A stretch of DNA of 64,000 nt from Escherichia phage FL08. The notes beneath the pieces are model-generated. The model ran no database searches and was not told where the DNA came from. It was given only the letters and a program-made list of their open reading frames with translations. The translations under genes were made by a program, and so were the position numbers. The stretch is from sequence record PP400785. One strand, 5' to 3'. This document shows positions 40,151 through 50,715 of the stretch, one piece after another; the stretch's first letter is position 1, and each line of letters opens with the position of its first letter.

Positions 40151-43100
40151 ATGGCCGAGATTAAAAGAAAGTTCAGAGCAGAAGATGGTCTGGACGCAGG
40201 TGGTGATAAAATAATCAACGTAGCTTTAGCTGATCGTGCCGTAGGAACTGACGGCGTTAACGTTGATTACTTAATTCAAGAAAACACAGTTCAACAATAT
40301 GATCCAACTCGTGGATATTTAAAAGATTTTGTAATCATTTATGATAACCGCTTTTGGGCTGCTATAAATGATATTCCAAAACCAGCAGGAGCTTTTAATA
40401 GCGTACGATGGAGAGCGTTACGTACTGATGCAAACTGGACAACTGTTTCATCAGGACCTTATCAATTAAAGTCAGGCGAATCAATTTCAGTTGATACTAC
40501 AGCTGGTAATGACATTACATTTACTTTACCATCTACCCCAATTGACGGTGATACTATCGTTCTCCAAGATATTGGAGGAAAACCTGGAGTTAACCAAGTT
40601 TTAATTACAGCTCCGGTACAAAGCATTGTAAATTTTAGAGGTCAGCAAGTACGTTCAGTACTAATGACTCATCCAAAATCACAGATAGTTTTAATTTTTA
40701 GTAATCGTCTGTGGCAAATGTATGTCGCTGATTATAGTAGAGAAGCTGTAGTTGTAACGCCTGCGAGTCTCTATCAGGCGCAATCAAACGATTTTATCGT
40801 GCGCAGATTTACTTCAGCCGCGGCGATTAATATTAAACTTCCGAGATTTGCTAATCATGGCGATATTATTAATTTCGTTGATTTGGATAAATTAAATCCT
40901 CTTTATCACACAATTGTTACTACATATGATGAAACAACTTCAGTACAAGAAGTTGGAACTCATTCCATTGAAGGCCGTACATCGATTGACGGTTTCTTGA
41001 TGTTTGATGATAATGAGAAATTGTGGAGATTGTTTGACGGGGATAGTAAAGCACGTTTACGCATTATAACAACTAATTCTAATATTCGTCCAAATGAAGA
41101 AGTCATGGTATTTGGCGCGAATAATGGAACAACCCAGACAATTGAACTTCAGCTTCCGACTAATATTTCTGTTGGTGATACTGTTAAAATTTCCATGAAT
41201 TACATGAGAAAAGGACAAACAGTTAAAATCAAAGCTGCTGATGAAGATAAAATTGCTTCTTCAGTTCAATTGTTGCAATTCCCAAAACGCTCAGAATATC
41301 CGCCTGAAGCTGAATGGGTAACAGTTCAAGAATTAGTTTTTAACGGTGAAACTAATTATGTTCCAGTTTTGGAGCTTGCTTATATAGAAGATTCTGATGG
41401 AAAATACTGGGTTGTACAACAAAACGTTCCAACTGTAGAAAGAGTAGATTCTTTAAATGATTCTACTAGAGCAAGATTAGGCGTAATTGCTTTAGCTACA
41501 CAAGCTCAAGCTAATGCTGATTTAGAAAATTCTCCGCAAAAAGAATTGGCAATTACTCCAGAAACGTTAGCTAATCGTACTGCTACAGAAACTCGTAGAG
41601 GTATCGCAAGAATAGCAACTACTGCTCAAGTTAACCAGGATACTACATTCTCTTTTGCTGATGATATTATCATCACTCCTAAAAAGCTGAATGAAAGAAC
41701 AGCTACTGAAACTCGCAGAGGTGTTGCTGAAATTGCTACGCAGCAAGAAACTAATGCAGGAACCGATGATACTACAATCATCACTCCTAAAAAGCTTCAA
41801 GCTCGTCAAGGTTCTGAATCATTATCTGGTATTGTAACCTTTGTATCTACTGCAGGTGCTACTCCAGCTTCTAGCCGTGAATTAAATGGTACGAATGTTT
41901 ATAATAAAAACACTAATAATTTAGTTGTTTCACCTAAAGCTTTGGATCAGTATAAAGCTACTCCAACGCAACAAGGCGCAGTAATTTTAGCAGTTGAAAG
42001 TGAAGTAATTGCTGGACAAAGCCAAGAAGGATGGGCAAATGCGGTTGTAACGCCAGAAACGTTACATAAAAAGACATCAACTGATGGAAGAATTGGTTTA
42101 ATTGAAATTGCTACGCAAAGTGAAGTTAATACAGGAACTGACTATACTCGTGCAGTCACTCCTAAAACTTTAAATGACCGTAGAGCAACTGAAAGTTTAA
42201 GTGGTATAGCTGAAATTGCTACGCAAGTTGAATTCGACGCAGGCGTCGACGATACTCGTATCTCTACACCATTAAAAATTAAAACCAGATTTAATAGTAC
42301 TGATCGTACTTCTGTTGTTGCTCTATCTGGATTAGTTGAATCAGGAACTCTCTGGGACCATTATACCCTTAATATTCTTGAAGCAAATGAGACACAGCGT
42401 GGTACACTTCGTGTAGCTACACAAGTTGAAGCTGCTGCAGGAACATTAGATAATGTTTTAATAACTCCTAAAAAGCTTTTAGGTACTAAATCTACCGAAT
42501 CGCAAGAAGGTGTTATTAAAGTTGCAACTCAGTCTGAAACTGTGACTGGAACGTCAGCAAATACTGCTGTATCTCCAAAAAATTTAAAATGGATTGTGCA
42601 GAGTGAACCAACTTGGGCAGCAACTACTCTGATAAGAGGGTTTGTTAAAACTTCTTCTGGTTCATTAACGTTTGTTGGTAATGATACGGTAGGTTCAACA
42701 CAGCCATTAGAATCATATGAGAAAAATGGTTATGCAGTATCACCATATGAATTAAATCGCGTATTAGCAAATTATTTGCCATTAAAAGCAAAAGCTGTAG
42801 ATAGTAATTTATTAGATGGTCTAGATTCGCTCCAGTTCATTCGTAGGGACATTGCACAAACAGTTAATGGTTCACTAACCTTAACCCAACAAACGAATCT
42901 GAGTGCCCCTCTTGTATCATCTAGTACTGCTACATTCGGTGGATCAGTTTCAGCAAATAGTACATTAACTATTTCTAATACTGGAACGGCAACTCGTCTG
43001 ATTTTTGAGAAAGGACCTCAAACTGGAACAAACCCAGCTCAAACGATGACAGTCAGAGTGTGGGGAAATCAGTTTAGTGGGGAATCAGACACAACACGTT

Positions 43101-44020
43101 CTACCGTATTTGAAGTTAGTGATGAAACGTCTAGTCATTTTTATTCTCAGCGTAATAAAGCTGGAAATATAACATTTAATATCAACGGTACAGTAACACC
43201 GATAAATGTTAATGCTTCAGGAACATTGAATGCAAATGGTGTAGCAACATTTGGTAATTCAGTCACTGCAACTGGTGAAATTATTTCTCGAAGCGCAAAT
43301 GCTTTCCGTGCTATTAACGGAAATTATGGTTTCATTGTTCGCAATGATGGGTCAGTAACGAATTTTATGCTTACTGCATCGGGTGATCAAACTGGCGGAT
43401 TTAATGGATTGCGTCCTTTAGCTATTAATAATGCATCTGGCCAAGTAACGATTGGTGAAAGCTTAATCATTGCAAAAGGTGCTACTATAAGTTCGGGTGG
43501 TTTGACTGTTAACTCGAGAATTCGTTCTCAGGGTACTAAAACCTCTGATTTATATACCCGTGCGCCAACATCTGATACAGTAGGATTCTGGTCAATCGAT
43601 ATTAATGATTCAGCCACTTATAACCAGTTCCCGGGTTATTTTAAAATGGTTGAAAAAACTAATGAAGTGACTGGACTTCCATACTTAGAACGTGGTGAAG
43701 AAGTTAAATCTCCTGGTACATTGACTCAGTTTGGTAACACACTTGATTCACTTTACCAAGATTGGATTACTTATCCAACGACTCCAGAAGCGCGCACCAC
43801 TCGCTGGACCCGCACATGGCAGAAAACCAAAAACTCTTGGTCAAGTTTTGTTCAGGTATTTGACGGAGGTAACCCTCCTCAGCCATCTGATATCGGTGCT
43901 TTACCATCTGATAATGCTATAATGGGGAATCTTACTATTCGTGATTTCTTACGAATTGGTAATGTTCGCATTATTCCTGACCCAGTGAATAAAACTGTTA
44001 AATTTGAATGGGTTGAATAA
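40151..44020 (+). CDS. 34: Long tail fiber proximal subunit gp34
   Basis: 1289 aa (T4 gp34 length); late promoter TATAAATA at 40109-40116; internal tandem ~40-aa repeats. Confidence 0.95.
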   Translation: MAEIKRKFRAEDGLDAGGDKIINVALADRAVGTDGVNVDYLIQENTVQQYDPTRGYLKDFVIIYDNRFWAAINDIPKPAGAFNSVRWRALRTDANWTTVSSGPYQLKSGESISVDTTAGNDITFTLPSTPIDGDTIVLQDIGGKPGVNQVLITAPVQSIVNFRGQQVRSVLMTHPKSQIVLIFSNRLWQMYVADYSREAVVVTPASLYQAQSNDFIVRRFTSAAAINIKLPRFANHGDIINFVDLDKLNPLYHTIVTTYDETTSVQEVGTHSIEGRTSIDGFLMFDDNEKLWRLFDGDSKARLRIITTNSNIRPNEEVMVFGANNGTTQTIELQLPTNISVGDTVKISMNYMRKGQTVKIKAADEDKIASSVQLLQFPKRSEYPPEAEWVTVQELVFNGETNYVPVLELAYIEDSDGKYWVVQQNVPTVERVDSLNDSTRARLGVIALATQAQANADLENSPQKELAITPETLANRTATETRRGIARIATTAQVNQDTTFSFADDIIITPKKLNERTATETRRGVAEIATQQETNAGTDDTTIITPKKLQARQGSESLSGIVTFVSTAGATPASSRELNGTNVYNKNTNNLVVSPKALDQYKATPTQQGAVILAVESEVIAGQSQEGWANAVVTPETLHKKTSTDGRIGLIEIATQSEVNTGTDYTRAVTPKTLNDRRATESLSGIAEIATQVEFDAGVDDTRISTPLKIKTRFNSTDRTSVVALSGLVESGTLWDHYTLNILEANETQRGTLRVATQVEAAAGTLDNVLITPKKLLGTKSTESQEGVIKVATQSETVTGTSANTAVSPKNLKWIVQSEPTWAATTLIRGFVKTSSGSLTFVGNDTVGSTQPLESYEKNGYAVSPYELNRVLANYLPLKAKAVDSNLLDGLDSLQFIRRDIAQTVNGSLTLTQQTNLSAPLVSSSTATFGGSVSANSTLTISNTGTATRLIFEKGPQTGTNPAQTMTVRVWGNQFSGESDTTRSTVFEVSDETSSHFYSQRNKAGNITFNINGTVTPINVNASGTLNANGVATFGNSVTATGEIISRSANAFRAINGNYGFIVRNDGSVTNFMLTASGDQTGGFNGLRPLAINNASGQVTIGESLIIAKGATISSGGLTVNSRIRSQGTKTSDLYTRAPTSDTVGFWSIDINDSATYNQFPGYFKMVEKTNEVTGLPYLERGEEVKSPGTLTQFGNTLDSLYQDWITYPTTPEARTTRWTRTWQKTKNSWSSFVQVFDGGNPPQPSDIGALPSDNAIMGNLTIRDFLRIGNVRIIPDPVNKTVKFEWVE
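41440..42600 (+). repeat. Tandem degenerate ~40-aa coding repeats within gene 34
   Basis: Recurring peptide units such as TETRRGIARIATTAQVN, TETRRGVAEIATQQETNAGTDDTTIITPKKL, TESLSGIAEIATQVEFDAGVDDTRISTPLK, TESQEGVIKVATQSETVTGTSANTAVSPKNL. Confidence 0.7.
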
Positions 44021-44028
44021 GAGGTATT

Positions 44029-45147
44029 ATGGAAAAATTTATGGCAGAGTTTGGACAAGGATATGTCCAAACGCCATTTTTATCGGAAAGTAATTCAGTA
44101 AGATACAAAATAAGTATAGCGGGTTCTTGCCCGCTTTCTACTGCAGAAGGACCATATGTTAAATTTCAGGATAATCCTATCGGAAGTCAAACATTTAGTG
44201 CAGGTCTTCATTTAAGAGTTTTTGACCCTTCTACAGGAGCATTAGTTGATAGTAAGTCATATGCTTTTTCTGCTTCAAATAATACTACATCAGCTGCTTT
44301 TGTCAGTTTCATGAATTCTTTGTCAAACAATAGACTTGTTGCTATATTAACTAGCGGAAAGGTTAATTTTCCTCCTGAGGTAGTGTCTTGGCTAAGAGCC
44401 GCGGGAACGTCTGCCTTTCCATCTGATTCTATATTGTCAAGATTTGACGTATCATATGCTGCTTTTTATACTTCTTCTAAAAGAGCTATTGCATTAGAGC
44501 ATGTTAAACTAAGTAATAGAAAAAGCACAGATGATTATCAAACTATTTTAGATGTTGTATTTGACAGTTTAGAAGACGTCGGAGCTACGGGATTTCCTAA
44601 AAGAACGTATGAAAGCGTTGAGCAATTTATGTCAGCGGTTGGTGGAACTAATAACGAAATTGCACGTTTACCAACTTCATCCGCGATAAGTAAACTCTCT
44701 GATTATAATTTAATTCCTGGCGATGTTCTTTATCTTAAAGCACAGCTATATGCTGATGCCGATTTACTTGCGCTTGGAACTACAAATATATCTATCCGTT
44801 TTTATGATGAATCGAATGGATATATTTCTTCAACACATGCTGAGTTTACTGGTCAAGCTGGGTCATGGGAATTAAAGGAAGACTATGTAGTTGTTCCTGA
44901 AAATGCGGTAGGATTTACGATATATGCACAAAGAACTGCCCAAGCAGGTCAAGGAGGCATGAGGAATTTAAGTTTTTCTGAAGTATCAAGAAATGGCGGA
45001 ATTTCAAAACCTGCTGAATTTGGCGTCAATGGTATTCGCGTTAATTATATCTGCGAATCTGCTTCACCTCCAGATATAATGGTACTTCCTACACAAGCAT
45101 CGTCTAAAACTGGTAAAGTGTTTGGACAAGAATTTAGAGAAGTTTAA
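44029..45147 (+). CDS. 35: Long tail fiber hinge connector gp35
   Basis: 372 aa; synteny 34-35-36-37. Confidence 0.9.
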   Translation: MEKFMAEFGQGYVQTPFLSESNSVRYKISIAGSCPLSTAEGPYVKFQDNPIGSQTFSAGLHLRVFDPSTGALVDSKSYAFSASNNTTSAAFVSFMNSLSNNRLVAILTSGKVNFPPEVVSWLRAAGTSAFPSDSILSRFDVSYAAFYTSSKRAIALEHVKLSNRKSTDDYQTILDVVFDSLEDVGATGFPKRTYESVEQFMSAVGGTNNEIARLPTSSAISKLSDYNLIPGDVLYLKAQLYADADLLALGTTNISIRFYDESNGYISSTHAEFTGQAGSWELKEDYVVVPENAVGFTIYAQRTAQAGQGGMRNLSFSEVSRNGGISKPAEFGVNGIRVNYICESASPPDIMVLPTQASSKTGKVFGQEFREV

Positions 45148-45152
45148 ATTGA

Positions 45153-45178
45153 GGGAGCCTTCGGGTTCCCTTTTTCTT
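45153..45178 (+). terminator. Intrinsic terminator after gene 35
   Basis: GGGAGCC-TTCG-GGTTCCC followed by TTTTTCTTT. Confidence 0.75.
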
Positions 45179-45186
45179 TATAAATA
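45179..45186 (+). promoter_or_regulatory. Late promoter TATAAATA upstream of gene 36
   Basis: Exact TATAAATA immediately after terminator, 24 nt upstream of gene 36 ATG. Confidence 0.7.
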
Positions 45187-45209: not shown

Positions 45210-45866
45210 ATGGCTGATTTAAAAGTAGGTTCAACAACTGGAGGCTCTGTCATTTGGCATCAAGGAAATTTTCCATTGAATCCAGCCGGTGACGATGTAC
45301 TCTATAAATCATTTAAAATATATTCAGAATACAATAAACCACAAGCTGCAGATAACGATTTCGTTTCTAAAGCTAATGGTGGTACTTATTTAAATAAAGT
45401 AATTTTTAATAAAGGAATGACTGTTCCTGGCGCAGGGTCAGGCGATAATGGTATTTTTGCTGGTCCTGGTGATAGTGCCACGTATGATACTACAAATATG
45501 GATATTGTTTCGTGGTATGGTATTGGTTTTAAATCATCACAAGGAACAGCAGGTAGAACTGTAGTAATTAACACACGAAATGGAGATATTAGCTCAAAGG
45601 GCGTAATTGAAGCATCACAAATCCGTGTAACTTCGTTATCACCAGTAAATAATTATGACCTTACGCGGAAAGATTATGTTGATGGAGCAATAAATATTGT
45701 TACAGCAAACGCAAACTCTAGGGTATTACGCTCTGGAGACACTATGACAGGAAATTTAACTGCGCCAAACCTTTTTTCACAGAATCCTGCATCTCAACCC
45801 TCACATGTTCCACGATTTGACCAAATTGTTATTAAGGATTCTGTTCAAGATTTCGGCTATTATTAA
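45210..45866 (+). CDS. 36: Long tail fiber distal connector gp36
   Basis: 218 aa; preceded by terminator plus late promoter TATAAATA. Confidence 0.9.
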   Translation: MADLKVGSTTGGSVIWHQGNFPLNPAGDDVLYKSFKIYSEYNKPQAADNDFVSKANGGTYLNKVIFNKGMTVPGAGSGDNGIFAGPGDSATYDTTNMDIVSWYGIGFKSSQGTAGRTVVINTRNGDISSKGVIEASQIRVTSLSPVNNYDLTRKDYVDGAINIVTANANSRVLRSGDTMTGNLTAPNLFSQNPASQPSHVPRFDQIVIKDSVQDFGYY

Positions 45867-45874
45867 GAGGACTT

Positions 45875-48800
45875 ATGGCTACTTTAAAACAAATACAATT
45901 TAAAAGAAGCAAAACTGCAGGAGCACGTCCTGCCGCTTCAGTATTAGCCGAAGGTGAATTGGCTATAAACTTAAAAGACCGTGTACTTTTTACTAAAGAT
46001 GACCAAGGAAATATTATTGATCTGGGATTTGCTAAAGGCGGTAGTATTGACGGGAATGTTATTCATACAGGCAATTATAACCAAACTGGCGATTATACTT
46101 TAAATGGCGTCTTCACTCAGACTGGTAATTTTAATTTAACCGGTACTGCTCGAGTAACTCGTGATATTATTGCCGCTGGGCAGATTATGACTGAAGGCGG
46201 TGAACTTATTACAAAAAGTTCAGGTACAGCACATGTTCGTTTTTTCGATGGCAATAGTCGCGAACGTGGAATCATTTATGCCCCGGCTAATGATGGTTTA
46301 ACTACACAAGTACTTAATATCAGGGTTCAAGACTACGCCGCTGGTGATGAAAATACCTACGCGTTTTCAGGTACTGGTCTTTTCACAGCTCCAGAAGTTT
46401 CTGCGTGGAAATCTATTTCGTCTCCACAAATTCTGACCGACAAAGTTATTACAAACGGGAAGAAGGCAGAAGATTATGATATCTATTCATTGGCAAATAA
46501 CACCCCATTATCTGAAAGCACTACTGCTATTAATCATCTTCGTGTCATGCGTAATGCAGTCGGTTCTGGTATTTTCCATGAAGTTAAAGACAATGATGGG
46601 ATAACTTGGTATGCAGGTGATGGACTTGACGCCTATCTTTGGTCGTTTACTTGGTCAGGTGGATTGAAAGCGGGACATTCTATTTCTGTAGGCACCCCAG
46701 GCGGCCCCAAAGGATACTCTGAATTAGGGACTGCTTCAATTTCTCTTGGCGATAATGATACCGGATTAAAATGGTATCAAGATGGTTATTTCTATGTAGT
46801 AAACAATGGTACGAGAACTTTCCTTTATAGTCCTGAATCAACCGTAAGCCTTAGAAAATTTGTAGCTGGATATTCTACTAACGGAACCGATTTAACTACT
46901 CCTCCAACTGAAAACTATGCTCTCGCTACTGTCGTGACATATCACGATAATAACGCGTTTGGAGATGGTCAGACTCTTTTAGGATATTACCAAGGCGGTA
47001 ATTATCATCACTATTTCCGTGGTAAAGGTACTACAAACATTAATACTCACGGCGGTTTGTTAGTTACTCCTGGTAATATTGACGTTATTGGTGGTTCTGT
47101 TAATATCGATGGTAGAAATAATAATTCAACTTTAATGTTTAAAGGCTATACCATGGGTCAAAGCTCCGTTGATAACATGTATATAGCTGTTTGGGGAAAT
47201 ACTTTTACTAATCCAAGTGAAGGTACCCGTAAAAATGTCATGGAAATTTCTGATGATATTGGATGGATGCATTATATTCAACGAACAACTGCAGGTAAAG
47301 TCGAATCGGTTCTAAACGGCACCCAGATTGTTAATGAAAACTTGACCGTAGTAAAAAATGCTACATTTGGTGGTACAATCAGCGCAGCAGGTGAAATTTC
47401 ATCTGGGGCTGTGAATGCGCTTCGTATTTGGAACGCAGATTATGGAGCTATTTTTAGACGTTCAGAAGGTAGTCTTCATATTATTCCAACTGCTTATGGT
47501 GAAGGTAAACATGGTGATATCGGCCCACTTCGCCCGTTTAGTATGGCTTTAGATACTGGTAAAGTTACTATTCCAGATTTACAATCAAGTTACAATACGT
47601 TCGCAGCAAACGGCTATATTAAATTTACTGGTCACGGTGCGGGCGCTGGCGGTTATGATATTCAATATGTTCAAGCGGCTCCTATTTTCCAGGAAATCGA
47701 TGATGATGCTGTAAGCAAATATTATCCTATTGTTAAACAGAAGTTTTTAAATGGTAAAGCCGTTTGGTCTTTAGGTACTGAAATTAATTCAGGTACATTC
47801 GTTATTCATCATCTGAAAGAAGATGGTTCACAAGGCCATACGTCTCGTTTTAATCAAGACGGTACTGTTAACTTCCCAGATAACGTTGCTGTCGGCGGCG
47901 GTGAAGCTACTATTGCTCGTAATGGTAACATCTGGTCTGATATCTGGAAAACGTTTACTTCAGCAGGCGACGTAACTAATATTCGCGATGCTATTGCTAC
48001 TCGCGTTGCCAAAGAAGGCGACACGATGACCGGGCGCTTAACTCTTAATGCAAACTCTGATGCCATCGTTATTAACAGCACCGCAACCGAATCTGGCTAT
48101 TTGAAAGGACAAAAAGCCGGCGTTGATAACTGGTATGTAGGTAATGGTGGGACTGATAATGCTATATCGTTTTATAGTTTCCGAACTAATTCAGGCATAT
48201 ATGTTAATAATGGTGGTGATATTGCTTTAAACCCGGAAGGGTCTGCCACTTTTAATTTTAATAGGGATCGAATTTATATAAATGGGTCAGTCTGGGCCGC
48301 ACACCAGGCTGGCGATTGGGGAAATCAATGGCGCCAGGAAGCTCCTGTATTTGTGGATTTTGGTAATGTCGGTAATGATAGTTATTATCCTATTATTAAA
48401 GGAAAATCTGGTATTACTAATGAAGGTTATATATCTGGTGTAGATTTTGGTATGCGCCGTATCACTAATACATGGGCACAAGGTATTATTCGTGTAGGCA
48501 ACCAGGAAGGCGATTCTGACCCACAAGCGATCTATGAATTCCACCACAATGGAGTTCTGTATGCTCCTAATATGGTTAAAACTGGGGCAAGACTATCAGC
48601 TGGCGGTGGTGACCCGGTGTGGACTGGACCATGTCTTGTTATTGGTGATAATGATACCGGATTAGTTCATGGTGGTGATGGGCGAATTAACATGGTTGCA
48701 AATGGAGTGCATATTGCTTCGTGGTCAGCTGCTTATCAGATCCATGAAGGTCTTTGGGATTCAACTGGTGCTTTATGGACTGAAACAGGAAGAGCTATTA

Positions 48801-49204
48801 TTTCTTATGGGCATTTAGTCCAACAAAGTGATGCCTATTCCACATATGTCCGCGATGTTTATGTTCGTTCTGATATTCGTGTTAAAAAAGACCTTGTTAA
48901 ATTTGAAAATGCTTCTGAGAAGCTTTCTAAAATTAACGGTTACACTTATATGCAGAAACGTGGAACAGATGAAGAAGGTAATCAGAAATGGGAACCTAAC
49001 GCTGGTTTGATAGCTCAAGAAGTTCAAGCTATTTTACCAGAATTAGTTGAAGGTGACCCGGATGGTGAAGCTTTACTTCGTTTGAACTATAACGGTGTAA
49101 TTGGTTTAAATACAGCTGCAATCAATGAGCATACTGCAGAAATTGCGGAACTTAAATCAGAAATTGAAGAACTTAAAGCATTAGTTAAATCATTGTTAAA
49201 ATAA
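45875..49204 (+). CDS. 37: Long tail fiber distal subunit gp37 with C-terminal intramolecular chaperone (peptidase S74-like) domain
   Basis: 1109 aa; last ~111 aa (from [10 protein letters not shown], nt 48869) resemble the self-cleaving intramolecular chaperone domain of phage fibers/endosialidases; T2-type architecture. Confidence 0.9.
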
Positions 49205-49207
49205 TAA

Positions 49208-49226
49208 GAGGGGCTTCGGCCCCTTG
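49208..49226 (+). other. GC hairpin with UUCG-type loop between genes 37 and 38 (no T-run)
   Basis: GAGGGGCTTCGGCCCCTT immediately upstream of gene 38 SD; likely RNA stability/processing structure rather than terminator. Confidence 0.45.
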
Positions 49227-49235
49227 GAGGTTTAT

Positions 49236-50027
49236 ATGGCAGTAACAGGACCGTGGGTAGGATCGTCTGCAGTAGTTAATACAGGACAAAATTGGATGGG
49301 TGGTGCCGCGCAGAGATTGAGAATGGGAATTCCGTTTTGGATGAGTAATATGATAGGTCGATCTGTTGAAATAATTCACACGCTTGGAGCAGACCATAAC
49401 TTCAATGGTCAATGGTTCCGAGATAGATGTTTTGAGGCAGGTAGTGCACCTATAGTGTTTAATATTACTGGAGATTTAGTATCATATTCTAGAGATGTTC
49501 CTTTATTCTTCATGTACGGAGATACACCAAATGAATATGTTCAGTTAAATATTATTGGCGCTCATATGTGGGGTAGAGGTGGACAAGGTGGATGGACTCA
49601 TTCCGGTGGAGATGGTAATGGACAACAAGGCGGGCATTGTATTCAAAACGACATTGGTGGACGATTAAGAATTAACAATGGTGGAGTAATCTGTGGTGGC
49701 GGAGGCGGTGGTGGCGGCATTGCTTACCGTGTTCACTCAGGGGCAAACTGGAAAGATATTGGTGGTGGCGGCGGAAGACCATTTGGCCCAGGTGGTGGCG
49801 GTGGTTACTCAGGTGGCGCAGCTTCATACGTCGCCCCAGGAGGTGGTTACCAATACGGAAATGCTCACTCTGGCCAGGGCGGCGATGCCGGAGGAAATGG
49901 ACAAAATGCCTGGTCTGATGGTGGTAAAGTTCTAAAGGTTGGTGCAGGAGGAGCAGCAGGTTATGCTGTCATAGGATCTGCTCCAACTTGGCAAAATGTT
50001 GGAGTAATATATGGTCCAAGAGTATAA
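49236..50027 (+). CDS. 38: Tail fiber adhesin gp38 (T2-type, glycine-rich motifs)
   Basis: 263 aa from ATG with GGAGG SD (track starts at upstream TTG); multiple poly-Gly motifs [23 protein letters not shown] separating variable segments. Confidence 0.88.
49680..49830 (+). repeat. GGN-rich low-complexity tract encoding poly-glycine motifs of gp38
   Basis: ggtggcggaggcggtggtggcggc and ggtggtggcggcgg runs. Confidence 0.7.
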
Positions 50028-50058
50028 TTTTGAATAAATACCCCTAAAAGGAGGGTCT

Positions 50059-50715
50059 ATGGCAGCACCTAGAATATCATTTTCGCCCTCTGATATTCTA
50101 TTTGGTGTTCTAGATCGCTTGTTCAAAGATAACGCTACCGGGAAAGTTCTTGCTTCCCGGGTAGCTGTCGTAATTCTTTTGTTTATGATGGCGATTGTTT
50201 GGTATAGGGGAGATAGTTTCTTTGAGTACTATAAGCAATCAAAGTATGAAACATACAGTGAAATTATTGAAAAGGAAAGAAATGCACGCTTTGAATCTGT
50301 CGCCCTGGAACAACTCCAGATAGTTCACATATCATCTGAGGCAGACTTTAGTGCGGTGTATTCTTTCCGCCCTAAAAACTTAAACTATTTTGTTGATATT
50401 ATAGCATATGAAGGAAAATTACCTTCAACAATAAGTGAAAAATCACTTGGAGGATATCCTGTTGATAAAACTATGGATGAATATACAGTTCATTTAAATG
50501 GACGTCATTATTATTCCGACTCAAAATTTGCTTTTTTACCAACTAAAAAGCCTACTCCCGAAATAAACTACATGTACAGTTGTCCATATTTTAATTTGGA
50601 TAATATCTATGCTGGAACGATAACCATGTACTGGTATAGAAATGATCATATAAGTAATGACCGCCTTGAATCAATATGTGCTCAGGCGGCCAGAATATTA
50701 GGAAGGGCTAAATAA
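50059..50715 (+). CDS. t: Holin T
   Basis: 218 aa; single N-terminal TM segment (VAVVILLFMMAIVWY) with large periplasmic domain; T4 holin length. Confidence 0.92.
   Translation: MAAPRISFSPSDILFGVLDRLFKDNATGKVLASRVAVVILLFMMAIVWYRGDSFFEYYKQSKYETYSEIIEKERNARFESVALEQLQIVHISSEADFSAVYSFRPKNLNYFVDIIAYEGKLPSTISEKSLGGYPVDKTMDEYTVHLNGRHYYSDSKFAFLPTKKPTPEINYMYSCPYFNLDNIYAGTITMYWYRNDHISNDRLESICAQAARILGRAK

What the first reader, a model, noticed from the sequence alone, without database searches (positions are those of the whole stretch)
45875..50027. T2-type receptor-recognition module: gp37 with C-terminal self-cleaving chaperone domain plus glycine-motif gp38 adhesin
The last ~111 residues of gp37 (from [10 protein letters not shown], nt 48869-49201) resemble the intramolecular chaperone/auto-proteolysis domain of phage fibers. 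gp38 carries several poly-glycine motifs separating short variable segments, the architecture of T2/K3/Ox2-type adhesins that bind the tip of gp37 and set host range. The variable segments between the Gly tracts are candidate specificity loops. The underlying GGN DNA repeats (49680-49830) are plausible sites for slippage or recombination.
Basis: partly seen in the sequence, partly recalled or inferred. Interest (0 to 1): 0.45.

Follow-up and report, generated by a model that had tools for sequence, protein, structure and literature searches.

The report
Known T2-type phage tail-fibre adhesin module
This is the ordinary, already published receptor-binding tip of the long tail fibre of Escherichia phage FL08: a fibre protein (gp37) with a self-cleaving folding domain, capped by a glycine-rich adhesin (gp38) that experiments have shown needs the outer-membrane protein OmpA.

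Summary
gp37 is 45875-49204 (1109 aa). gp38 is 49236-50027 (263 aa). The window's gp34, gp35, gp37 and gp38 match GenBank proteins of Escherichia phage FL08 exactly (XAO16509/10/12/13).

The last 111 residues of gp37 (S999-K1109, nt 48869-49201) are a Peptidase_S74 intramolecular chaperone (Pfam E 9e-13). They are 56% identical to the S16 gp37 domain, which is reported to autocleave at DLNVS^SDRRIKK. The window reads DVYVR^SDIRVKK.

gp38 matches Pfam GP38 (E 4e-67) and Gp38_N. It keeps the three docking tryptophans and the G8 tract. Its AlphaFold model (pLDDT 87.8) matches only the PP01 and S16 gp38 crystal structures. Conserved glycine motifs alternate with five variable loops.

The one weak point is the DNA claim. 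The GGN runs are real but carry mixed codons: the longest perfect triplet repeat is 9 nt, TRF finds nothing, and the G8 tract shows no length changes by insertion or deletion. Slippage is therefore unsupported. Recombination at glycine motifs is an old published idea. Here the variable loops are inherited as one block, and exchanges fall in the flanks.

Verdict: already known, low interest.

The parts
45179..45186 (+). T4-type late-promoter box TATAAATA ahead of gene 36. It is the likely start of a 36-37-38 late transcript (inferred).
   Evidence: This is the only exact TATAAATA between gene 35 and the holin gene; none lies before g37 or g38. It sits just after a UUCG hairpin and T-run at 45151-45172.
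45875..49204 (+). Gene 37, the long tail fibre distal subunit precursor (1109 aa). It is an exact match to XAO16512.1 of phage FL08.
   Evidence: PHROG 1699 'long tail fiber protein distal subunit' aligns over the full length, 1325 bits.
47222..47542 (+). Gp34_trimer-like domain in the gp37 shaft (aa 450-556).
   Evidence: Pfam PF21446, E 1e-7. The PDB sequence search aligns aa 418-567 to T4 gp34 chains 5NXF and 4UXE, E ~5e-17.
48632..48868 (+). Mature gp37 tip (aa 920-998), ending in DVYVR. After cleavage this is the docking platform for gp38.
   Evidence: Aligns to the S16 gp37 tip in 6F45_A, E 2e-43 over aa 920-1109. The docking role comes from the S16 structure (PMC6851490; PMC7917993).
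48869..49201 (+). C-terminal intramolecular chaperone and autoprotease domain (aa 999-1109). Predicted cleavage is R998|S999, with S999 as nucleophile and K1004 as base.
   Evidence: Pfam Peptidase_S74 covers aa 999-1058, profile 1-57 of 58, 48.7 bits against a cut-off of 22. It is 56% identical to the S16 chaperone domain. S999, D1000, R1002 and K1004 are invariant in 8 gp37s. There is a weak hit to MYRF, E 0.017.
49208..49225 (+). Intergenic hairpin GAGGGGC-UUCG-GCCCCUU between the gp37 stop and the gp38 ribosome-binding site.
   Evidence: The hairpin forms in both the minimum-free-energy and centroid folds. It is conserved in 8 related phages; T2 and T6 have altered stems that remain complementary.
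49236..50027 (+). Gene 38, the receptor-recognising adhesin (263 aa). It is an exact match to XAO16513.1 'adhesin protein' of phage FL08.
   Evidence: Pfam GP38 E 3.7e-67 and Gp38_N E 3.7e-21. PDB 9V85 E 2e-74 and 6F45_D E 3.5e-54. The AF2 model has pLDDT 87.8 and matches only these two structures.
49236..49355 (+). gp38 N-terminal attachment domain (aa 1-40) with the three docking tryptophans W7, W20 and W35.
   Evidence: Pfam Gp38_N covers aa 1-40. The Trp positions come and are nearly invariant in 51 homologues. Their role comes from the S16 structure.
49572..49952 (+). Polyglycine (PGII) sandwich specificity domain (aa 113-239): glycine-rich motifs alternating with variable loops.
   Evidence: 39% Gly in aa 108-247. 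Conservation alternates between motifs and loops. The fold matches the PP01 receptor-binding domain with target-normalised TM 0.84.
49593..49628 (+). Variable loop A (aa 120-131, [12 protein letters not shown]).
   Evidence: Mapped onto PP01 loop-A. Majority-residue fraction 0.49.
49695..49718 (+). G8 tract (aa 154-161), equivalent to the central PGII helix 151-GGGGGGGG-158 of S16. DNA: GGTGGCGGAGGCGGTGGTGGCGGC.
   Evidence: The S16 helix is described in PMC6851490. Gap fraction is 0.02 and no inserted columns occur among 96 homologues.
49719..49760 (+). Variable loop B (aa 162-175, [14 protein letters not shown]). It holds R165 and A170, which are modelled to contact OmpA loops.
   Evidence: PMC12032242. 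K173 is the only difference from AV119 inside the specificity domain.
49806..49838 (+). Variable loop C region (aa 191-201).
49848..49871 (+). Variable loop D (aa 205-212, YQYGNAHS).
49896..49946 (+). Variable loop E (aa 221-237).

Best explanation
Nucleotides 45875-50027 encode the T2/S16-type receptor-recognition module of Escherichia phage FL08, a Tequatrovirus.

gp37 is made as a 1109-residue precursor. Its C-terminal 111 residues act as an intramolecular chaperone that drives trimerisation and folding of the beta-helical fibre tip. This domain then removes itself by Ser999/Lys1004-type autoproteolysis between R998 and S999.

Cleavage exposes the DVYVR-ended tip. One gp38 monomer docks onto this tip through the three tryptophans of its N-terminal helical bundle.

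The beta-helix of gp38 carries a polyglycine-II sandwich. Its five distal variable loops bind the extracellular loops of OmpA and set host range.

Shown here: the identity of the genes, family membership, the catalytic motif, the fold, and the loop/motif layout. Shown by others for this phage: dependence on OmpA. Inferred by homology: the cleavage itself, the 3:1 stoichiometry, and the docking mode.
For: - Identity: exact protein matches to FL08 gp34, gp35, gp37 and gp38.
- Family: Pfam Peptidase_S74, GP38 and Gp38_N, plus PHROG tail-fibre and host-specificity families.
- Solved structures: PDB sequence hits to 9V85, 6F45_D and 6F45_A.
- Catalytic motif: the S-D-x-R-x-K motif is invariant in an alignment with T2, T6, RB69, AV119, FL18, FL23 and Jbel.
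- Chaperone domain: 56% identity to the S16 domain. The S16 cleavage site DLNVS^SDRRIKK is reported in PMC7917993. Proteolytic cleavage of T2 and T6 gp37 and capping by gp38 are stated in PMC3157838.
- Fold: the AF2 gp38 model (pLDDT 87.8, pTM 0.79) matches only 9V85 (E 2e-29, TMt 0.84) and 6F45_D (E 3e-25) in the PDB.
- Docking residues: W7, W20 and W35 are present and conserved.
- Receptor: FL08 fails to infect an ompA deletion mutant. It is a 'type 1' Gp38 that accepts all 8 tested OmpA variants, with R165, A170, D217, R181 and R262 at the modelled interface (PMC12032242). All of these residues sit at those positions in the window protein.
Against: Nothing in the sequence contradicts this explanation. 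The gaps are experimental: cleavage of FL08 gp37 and the presence of gp38 in FL08 virions have not been shown directly. The single-sequence AF2 model of the chaperone domain was too poor to use (pLDDT 52), so that domain rests on sequence evidence alone. T2 itself is only 46% (gp38) and about 34% (last 209 residues of gp37) identical. 'T2-type' therefore describes the architecture, not close kinship to T2.
Confidence: 0.95

Rival explanations
1. gp38 is a T4-type assembly chaperone that helps gp37 fold and is absent from the virion. Under this reading gp37 itself would bind the receptor.
For: Several database records still label homologues 'distal long tail fiber assembly catalyst', for example RB69, HY03 and wV7.
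Against: The protein matches Pfam GP38 (PF05268) and Gp38_N. It also matches two crystal structures of adhesins bound at, or taken from, the fibre tip. The RB69 record itself notes that the T2-subfamily 'gp38' is an unrelated adhesin. gp37 carries its own chaperone domain. FL08 receptor use tracks Gp38 phylogeny.
Confidence: 0.02
2. The GGN tracts in gene 38 are contingency loci. Replication slippage changes the number of glycine codons and so varies the adhesin.
For: There are runs of 5-8 consecutive GGN codons. The longest G-run at the G8 position varies from 5 to 9 residues among homologues.
Against: The codons are mixed, so the longest perfect triplet repeat is 9 nt, and TRF reports no array. 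The G8 columns have a gap fraction of 0.02 and no inserted columns among 96 homologues, so the run-length differences come from substitutions at the flanks, not insertions or deletions. Relatives differ by synonymous third-position changes. The tracts form fixed-length PGII helices in the crystal structures.
Confidence: 0.03
3. The glycine-motif DNA acts as internal crossover points that reshuffle individual variable loops between adhesins.
For: [quoted passage not shown] One engineered cross exchanged only the part of gp38 from HVS2 onwards.
Against: Among 96 homologues the five loops co-vary as a block: all resemble FL08 or none do. Natural breakpoints seen here lie in the N-terminal helix (49244-49291), at about 49490-49530, and at about 49935-49980, so they flank the whole sandwich domain. 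Trojet et al. found no exchange between GRM1 and GRM5 in 14 chimeras.
Confidence: 0.25

Closest known systems
Escherichia phage FL08 gp37/gp38 (GenBank XAO16512.1 / XAO16513.1; Lutz et al. 2025, npj Viruses, PMC12032242)
   Same: Identical protein sequences. This is the same object.
   Different: Nothing differs. GenBank labels gp37 only 'hypothetical protein'. The published work deals with gp38 and OmpA, not with gp37 processing.
Escherichia phage AV119 Gp38 ('type 1' OmpA adhesin)
   Same: 96.2% amino-acid identity. The specificity domain differs at only one residue (K173 versus Q), which is 1 nt difference in 49493-50027. Both phages are OmpA-dependent with a broad ECOR host range.
   Different: The N-terminal helix carries a different allele, with 6 substitutions in aa 4-19. 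Parts of gp37 are only 49-80% identical at the nucleotide level.
Salmonella phage S16 gp37-gp38 tip complex (PDB 6F45; Dunne et al. 2018)
   Same: Same three-domain gp38, the same three tryptophans, the same G8 helix, the same gp37 tip, and a chaperone domain with the S-D-x-R-x-K motif.
   Different: gp38 is 52% identical and the variable loops are unrelated. S16 uses Salmonella OmpC. The S16 chaperone domain is 113 residues against 111 here.
Phage PP01 gp38 receptor-binding domain (PDB 9V85; Terasaki et al. 2026, PMC12892980)
   Same: Best structural match (E 2e-29, TMt 0.84). The beta-helix part is nearly identical in sequence.
   Different: Loops A-E differ in sequence and length. PP01 binds OmpC of E. 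coli O157.
Phage T2, T6, K3, Ox2 and M1 gp38 adhesins (Henning group, 1987-1989; Trojet et al. 2011)
   Same: Same gene order 36-37-38-t, the same glycine-motif and variable-segment design, and gp37 C-terminal processing.
   Different: Sequence identity is modest: T2 46% and T6 67%, M1 66% in the 51-sequence alignment. Receptors differ; T6 uses Tsx and K3/Ox2 use OmpA. K3 and Ox2 themselves were not retrieved for alignment.
Endosialidase-type C-terminal intramolecular chaperone domains (Peptidase_S74; phage K1F endoNF, T5 pb1, GA-1 gp12; Schulz et al. 2010)
   Same: Pfam family membership, a C-terminal position on a trimeric beta-helical fibre, and a Ser/Lys motif at the domain start.
   Different: The similarity is at family level only. 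No PDB sequence hit to those chains appeared at E <= 10. The fold was not confirmed here.

Membership tests
T2/S16-type Gp38 adhesin (Pfam PF05268 + PF21721) | Sequence match to the GP38 and Gp38_N profiles above the curated cut-offs | tested here: met
   GP38 scores 226.8 bits and Gp38_N 75.3 bits, each against a cut-off of 25. PHROG 2056 'tail fiber protein; host specificity' gives E 6e-109.
T2/S16-type Gp38 adhesin (Pfam PF05268 + PF21721) | N-terminal helical attachment domain with three conserved tryptophans that plug into the gp37 tip | tested here: met
   W7, W20 and W35 are present and at least 90% conserved in 51 homologues. Their role is known from S16. Docking itself was not tested; the model's N-terminus has low confidence (pLDDT 54-68).
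T2/S16-type Gp38 adhesin (Pfam PF05268 + PF21721) | Beta-helix plus polyglycine-II sandwich fold | tested here: met
   The AF2 model (pLDDT 87.8) matches 9V85 (E 2e-29, TMt 0.84) and 6F45_D (E 3e-25, TM 0.73-0.77). No other PDB fold reaches E < 1.
T2/S16-type Gp38 adhesin (Pfam PF05268 + PF21721) | Conserved glycine-rich motifs alternating with hypervariable segments | tested here: met
   Glycine motifs have majority-residue fractions of 0.65-0.98. The variable segments have 0.44-0.65 and carry the insertions and deletions. Based on 96 homologues.
T2/S16-type Gp38 adhesin (Pfam PF05268 + PF21721) | Gene lies directly downstream of gene 37 and upstream of holin gene t | tested here: met
   The order gp34-gp35-gp36-gp37-gp38-t is seen in the window. 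T2, T6, AV119 and RB69 have the same order.
T2/S16-type Gp38 adhesin (Pfam PF05268 + PF21721) | Present on the virion and determines the receptor | not testable with these tools
   The literature reports that FL08 requires OmpA and that receptor use follows Gp38 phylogeny (PMC12032242). Virion proteomics of FL08 was not found.
Peptidase_S74 intramolecular chaperone / autoprotease domain | Profile match above the curated cut-off, at the extreme C-terminus of a fibre protein | tested here: met
   PF13884 scores 48.7 bits against a cut-off of 22, covers aa 999-1058 and spans profile positions 1-57 of 58. Many PHROG tail-fibre C-termini align to aa ~990-1108.
Peptidase_S74 intramolecular chaperone / autoprotease domain | Nucleophilic Ser at the first residue of the domain, with Lys five residues downstream (S-D-x-R-x-K) | tested here: met
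   S999-D-I-R-V-K1004. The S, D, R and K residues are invariant in 8 gp37 sequences, including T2 and T6. The motif aligns to the S16 sequence SDRRIKK directly after that protein's cleavage site.
Peptidase_S74 intramolecular chaperone / autoprotease domain | Trimeric helical-bundle fold of the released domain | tested here: inconclusive
   The single-sequence AF2 model reached only pLDDT 52. No fold search was run on it.
Peptidase_S74 intramolecular chaperone / autoprotease domain | Actual autocleavage and release after trimerisation | not testable with these tools
   Cleavage is reported for S16 and for T2 and T6. For FL08 it is inferred by homology.
T4-type gp38 (tail fibre assembly chaperone) | Homology to T4 gp38 or lambda Tfa-type chaperones | tested here: not met
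   No such family appears among the Pfam or PHROG hits at E <= 0.01 or 0.001. All hits are to adhesin families.

The most novel reading that the evidence does not exclude
The least ordinary reading still open concerns the conserved C(UUCG)G hairpin between the gp37 stop codon and the gp38 ribosome-binding site (49208-49225). T2 and T6 keep it with altered stems that remain complementary. It may tune how much gp38 is made relative to gp37 (one adhesin per three fibre chains), or protect the 36-37 message, rather than being a neutral spacer. Separately, natural loop-by-loop reshuffling at the glycine-motif DNA is not excluded, although the data here point to whole-domain exchange.
Probability: 0.15. 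Interest if true: 0.3.

Novelty: already known. Interest (0 to 1): 0.08.

Why it matters
gp38 adhesins are the main host-range switch of T-even phages and are used to predict or re-engineer phage receptors for therapy. For this window nothing new follows, because the phage, its adhesin and its receptor (OmpA) are published.

Two practical points come out of the check:
- The GenBank 'hypothetical protein' XAO16512.1 can safely be annotated as gp37 with a self-cleaving C-terminal chaperone domain, with cleavage predicted at R998|S999.
- The slippage idea can be dropped.

Tried and rejected
- **Structure prediction from mixed sources.** I redid it with proteins from the homologue search.
- **Chaperone domain model.** The single-sequence AF2 model was too poor (pLDDT 52), so I made no fold comparison.
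- **NCBIfam.** It has no model for either protein.
- **PDB search with the chaperone domain alone.** Besides S16, it gave only weak hits to MYRF (E 0.017) and a tail fibre chain, 8JOV (E 0.025). It gave none to endoNF, T5 or GA-1.
- **Repeat detection.** Tandem Repeats Finder found no array in 49680-49830. Direct-repeat search found only short GGN matches.
- **FL08 genome record.** It is not in the phage BLAST collection (best module hit 90.1% nt). I therefore established identity by exact protein look-up instead.
- **Logan contig.** The contig with an identical gp38 is a different phage: 93.6% nt identity, gp37 of 1103 aa.
- **K3 and Ox2.**
- **RNA scans.** Rfam and tRNA scans of the window were empty.
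Full report
**What is at the coordinates**

The window is a T4-like (Tequatrovirus) genome segment. Positions 20000-44000 are about 96% identical to many Tequatrovirus genomes.

The + strand carries the long-tail-fibre operon in the canonical order:
- gp34: 40151-44020
- gp35: 44029-45147
- gp36: 45210-45866
- gp37: 45875-49204 (1109 aa)
- gp38: ends at 50027
- holin t: 50059-50715

The ORF lister starts gp38 at TTG 49224. The real start is ATG 49236, behind GGAGG at 49226-49230. That start gives a 263-aa protein beginning [11 protein letters not shown], like S16 gp38.

**Identity**

An exact-sequence look-up shows that the window's gp34, gp35, gp37 and gp38 are the consecutive GenBank proteins XAO16509.1, XAO16510.1, XAO16512.1 and XAO16513.1 of Escherichia phage FL08, a 167,645-bp genome.

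FL08 is absent from the phage BLAST collection. This explains why the best nucleotide match to the module there is only 90.1% (Salmonella phage Jbel). A Logan metagenome contig encodes the same gp38 protein but is otherwise 93.6% identical and has a 1103-aa gp37. The adhesin allele therefore circulates among distinct phages.

**The gp37 C-terminus**

- Pfam Peptidase_S74 ('chaperone of endosialidase') covers aa 999-1058 over almost the whole profile, at 48.7 bits against a cut-off of 22.
- Residues 920-1109 align to the S16 gp37 construct of PDB 6F45, E 2e-43.
- The chaperone part alone is 56% identical to that of S16.
- For S16 the last 113 residues are reported to be autocleaved at DLNVS^SDRRIKK, which exposes the gp38 docking surface (PMC7917993).
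- The window has DVYVR^SDIRVKK. S999, D1000, R1002 and K1004 are invariant in an alignment that includes T2 and T6, whose gp37 tips are otherwise very different.

Cleavage of FL08 gp37 itself is an inference by homology. My single-sequence structure model of this domain was unusable (pLDDT 52).

**gp38**

- Pfam GP38 (E 3.7e-67) and Gp38_N (E 3.7e-21) both match, as does PHROG 'tail fiber protein; host specificity'.
- The PDB sequence search finds only the PP01 gp38 receptor-binding domain (9V85, E 2e-74) and S16 gp38 (6F45_D, E 3.5e-54).
- An AlphaFold2 model built on 51 homologues has pLDDT 87.8. In a Foldseek search of the PDB it matches only these two structures (E 2e-29 and 3e-25, target-normalised TM 0.84 and 0.77). 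Nothing else reaches E < 1.
- The three docking tryptophans described for S16 are present as W7, W20 and W35 and are conserved.
- The G8 tract (aa 154-161) corresponds to the central PGII helix of S16.
- Across 96 homologues, conserved glycine motifs (majority-residue fraction 0.65-0.98) alternate with variable segments (0.44-0.65) that also carry the insertions and deletions.
- I mapped the five PP01 loops A-E onto FL08.

**Function**

Lutz et al. (PMC12032242) tested FL08 itself. The phage depends on OmpA. Together with AV119 it belongs to the 'type 1' Gp38 group. It infects 16 of 72 ECOR strains and accepts all eight OmpA variants tested. In AlphaFold-multimer and molecular-dynamics models, R165, A170, D217, R181 and R262 make the contacts. 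These residues sit at exactly those numbers in the window protein.

AV119 gp38 is 96.2% identical. Within the specificity domain the only difference is K173 versus Q.

**The DNA-level claim**

GGN runs exist at 49680-49685, 49695-49718, 49761-49775, 49791-49805 and 49812-49817.

They are built from mixed codons. The longest perfect triplet repeat is 9 nt, and Tandem Repeats Finder reports nothing there. The G8 columns show no insertions or deletions in 96 homologues. Differences in G-run length come from flanking substitutions, and relatives differ by synonymous third-position changes. Slippage is therefore not supported.

Recombination in this locus is obvious, but it follows a different pattern:
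- The same dense cluster of differences at 49244-49291 (17 positions against AV119) separates FL08 and the Logan contig from AV119, Jbel, RB69 and FL23.
- RB69, a Mosigvirus, is 100% identical to FL08 in the gp37 tip (48700-48864), where all the others diverge.
- FL18, FL23 and RB69 are 96-99% identical up to about nt 49440. They fall to 40-60% across the whole sandwich domain and recover at about 49980, though RB69 does so only partly (58% there, about 74% beyond 50025).

At the protein level the five loops are inherited as one block, while the N-terminal allele assorts independently.

This agrees with Trojet et al., who found no exchange between GRM1 and GRM5 among 14 chimeras. One engineered cross in a 2026 preprint did recombine from HVS2 onwards. 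Glycine motifs as crossover points is itself a published idea (Tetart 1996/1998).

**Comparison and verdict**

The module is a member of the T2/S16-type gp37-gp38 system on every feature I could test. It is the very protein pair of a phage whose receptor has been published.

The rival that gp38 is a T4-type chaperone is rejected: there are no hits to chaperone families, only to adhesin families and adhesin structures.

Novelty is 'already known' and interest is low. Only the slippage remark should be dropped.

**Side observations**

- A conserved C(UUCG)G hairpin lies between the gp37 stop and the gp38 ribosome-binding site.
- A similar hairpin plus T-run follows gene 35, directly before the only TATAAATA box of the region. 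This suggests a single 36-37-38 late transcript.
- GenBank labels FL08 gp37 a hypothetical protein.

Noticed in passing
window 49208-49225: A stable hairpin, GAGGGGC-UUCG-GCCCCUU, sits between the double stop of gene 37 and the GGAGG of gene 38. It is conserved in AV119, Jbel, RB69, FL23 and FL18. T2 (AGAGGGC-TTCG-GCCCTCT) and T6 (AAGGGGC-TTT-GCCCCTT) have changed stems that are still complementary. Some GenBank records call it a terminator, but no T-run follows it.
   Followed up: partly
window 45151-45186: A second UUCG hairpin with a T-run (GAGGGAGCC-TTCG-GGTTCCCTT TTTCTTT) follows gene 35. It is directly followed by the late-promoter box TATAAATA (45179-45186) ahead of gene 36. No exact TATAAATA precedes genes 37 or 38, so 36-37-38 probably form one late transcript.
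   Followed up: partly
window 45875-49204: The gp37 of this phage is deposited in GenBank (XAO16512.1, phage FL08) as 'hypothetical protein', although it is a full-length long-tail-fibre distal subunit.
   Followed up: yes
window 48700-48864 and 49244-49291: There is fine-scale mosaicism. The gp37 tip segment is 100% identical at the nucleotide level to Mosigvirus RB69 and divergent from all Tequatrovirus relatives examined. The first helix of gp38 carries an allele shared with a Logan contig but different from AV119, Jbel, RB69 and FL23. RB69 thus pairs the same gp37 tip with the other gp38 N-terminal allele, so the 'lock-and-key' pairing is not strict at this level.
   Followed up: partly
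window 47235-47370: A patch in the gp37 shaft, inside the Gp34_trimer-like domain, is 87-97% identical to Salmonella phage Jbel. It is only 37-61% identical to AV119, FL18, FL23, RB69 and the Logan contig.
   Followed up: no
window 49137-49200: A 21-nt tandem duplication (2 copies, 90% match) and a 12-nt repeat at the very end of gene 37 encode the heptad-like [19 protein letters not shown] tail of the chaperone domain.
   Followed up: no
L004 (phage FL18) 4041-4814: FL18 gp38 is annotated from an internal Met (237 aa), although the usual ATGGCAGTTGAAGGA start and its ribosome-binding site are present upstream. This is probably a start-codon mis-call.
   Followed up: partly
protein P0089: A 303-aa protein labelled E. 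coli carries Peptidase_S74, Gp38_N and GP38 domains in one ORF. It looks like a fusion of the gp37 C-terminus with gp38, or a gene-calling or assembly artefact.
   Followed up: no
window 50028-50058: The gp38-holin spacer contains AATAAATA, one mismatch from the late-promoter box, followed by a GGAGGG ribosome-binding site. It may be a separate late promoter for gene t.
   Followed up: no
window 1-64000: No tRNA genes and no Rfam family at gathering threshold were found anywhere in the 64-kb window.
   Followed up: yes
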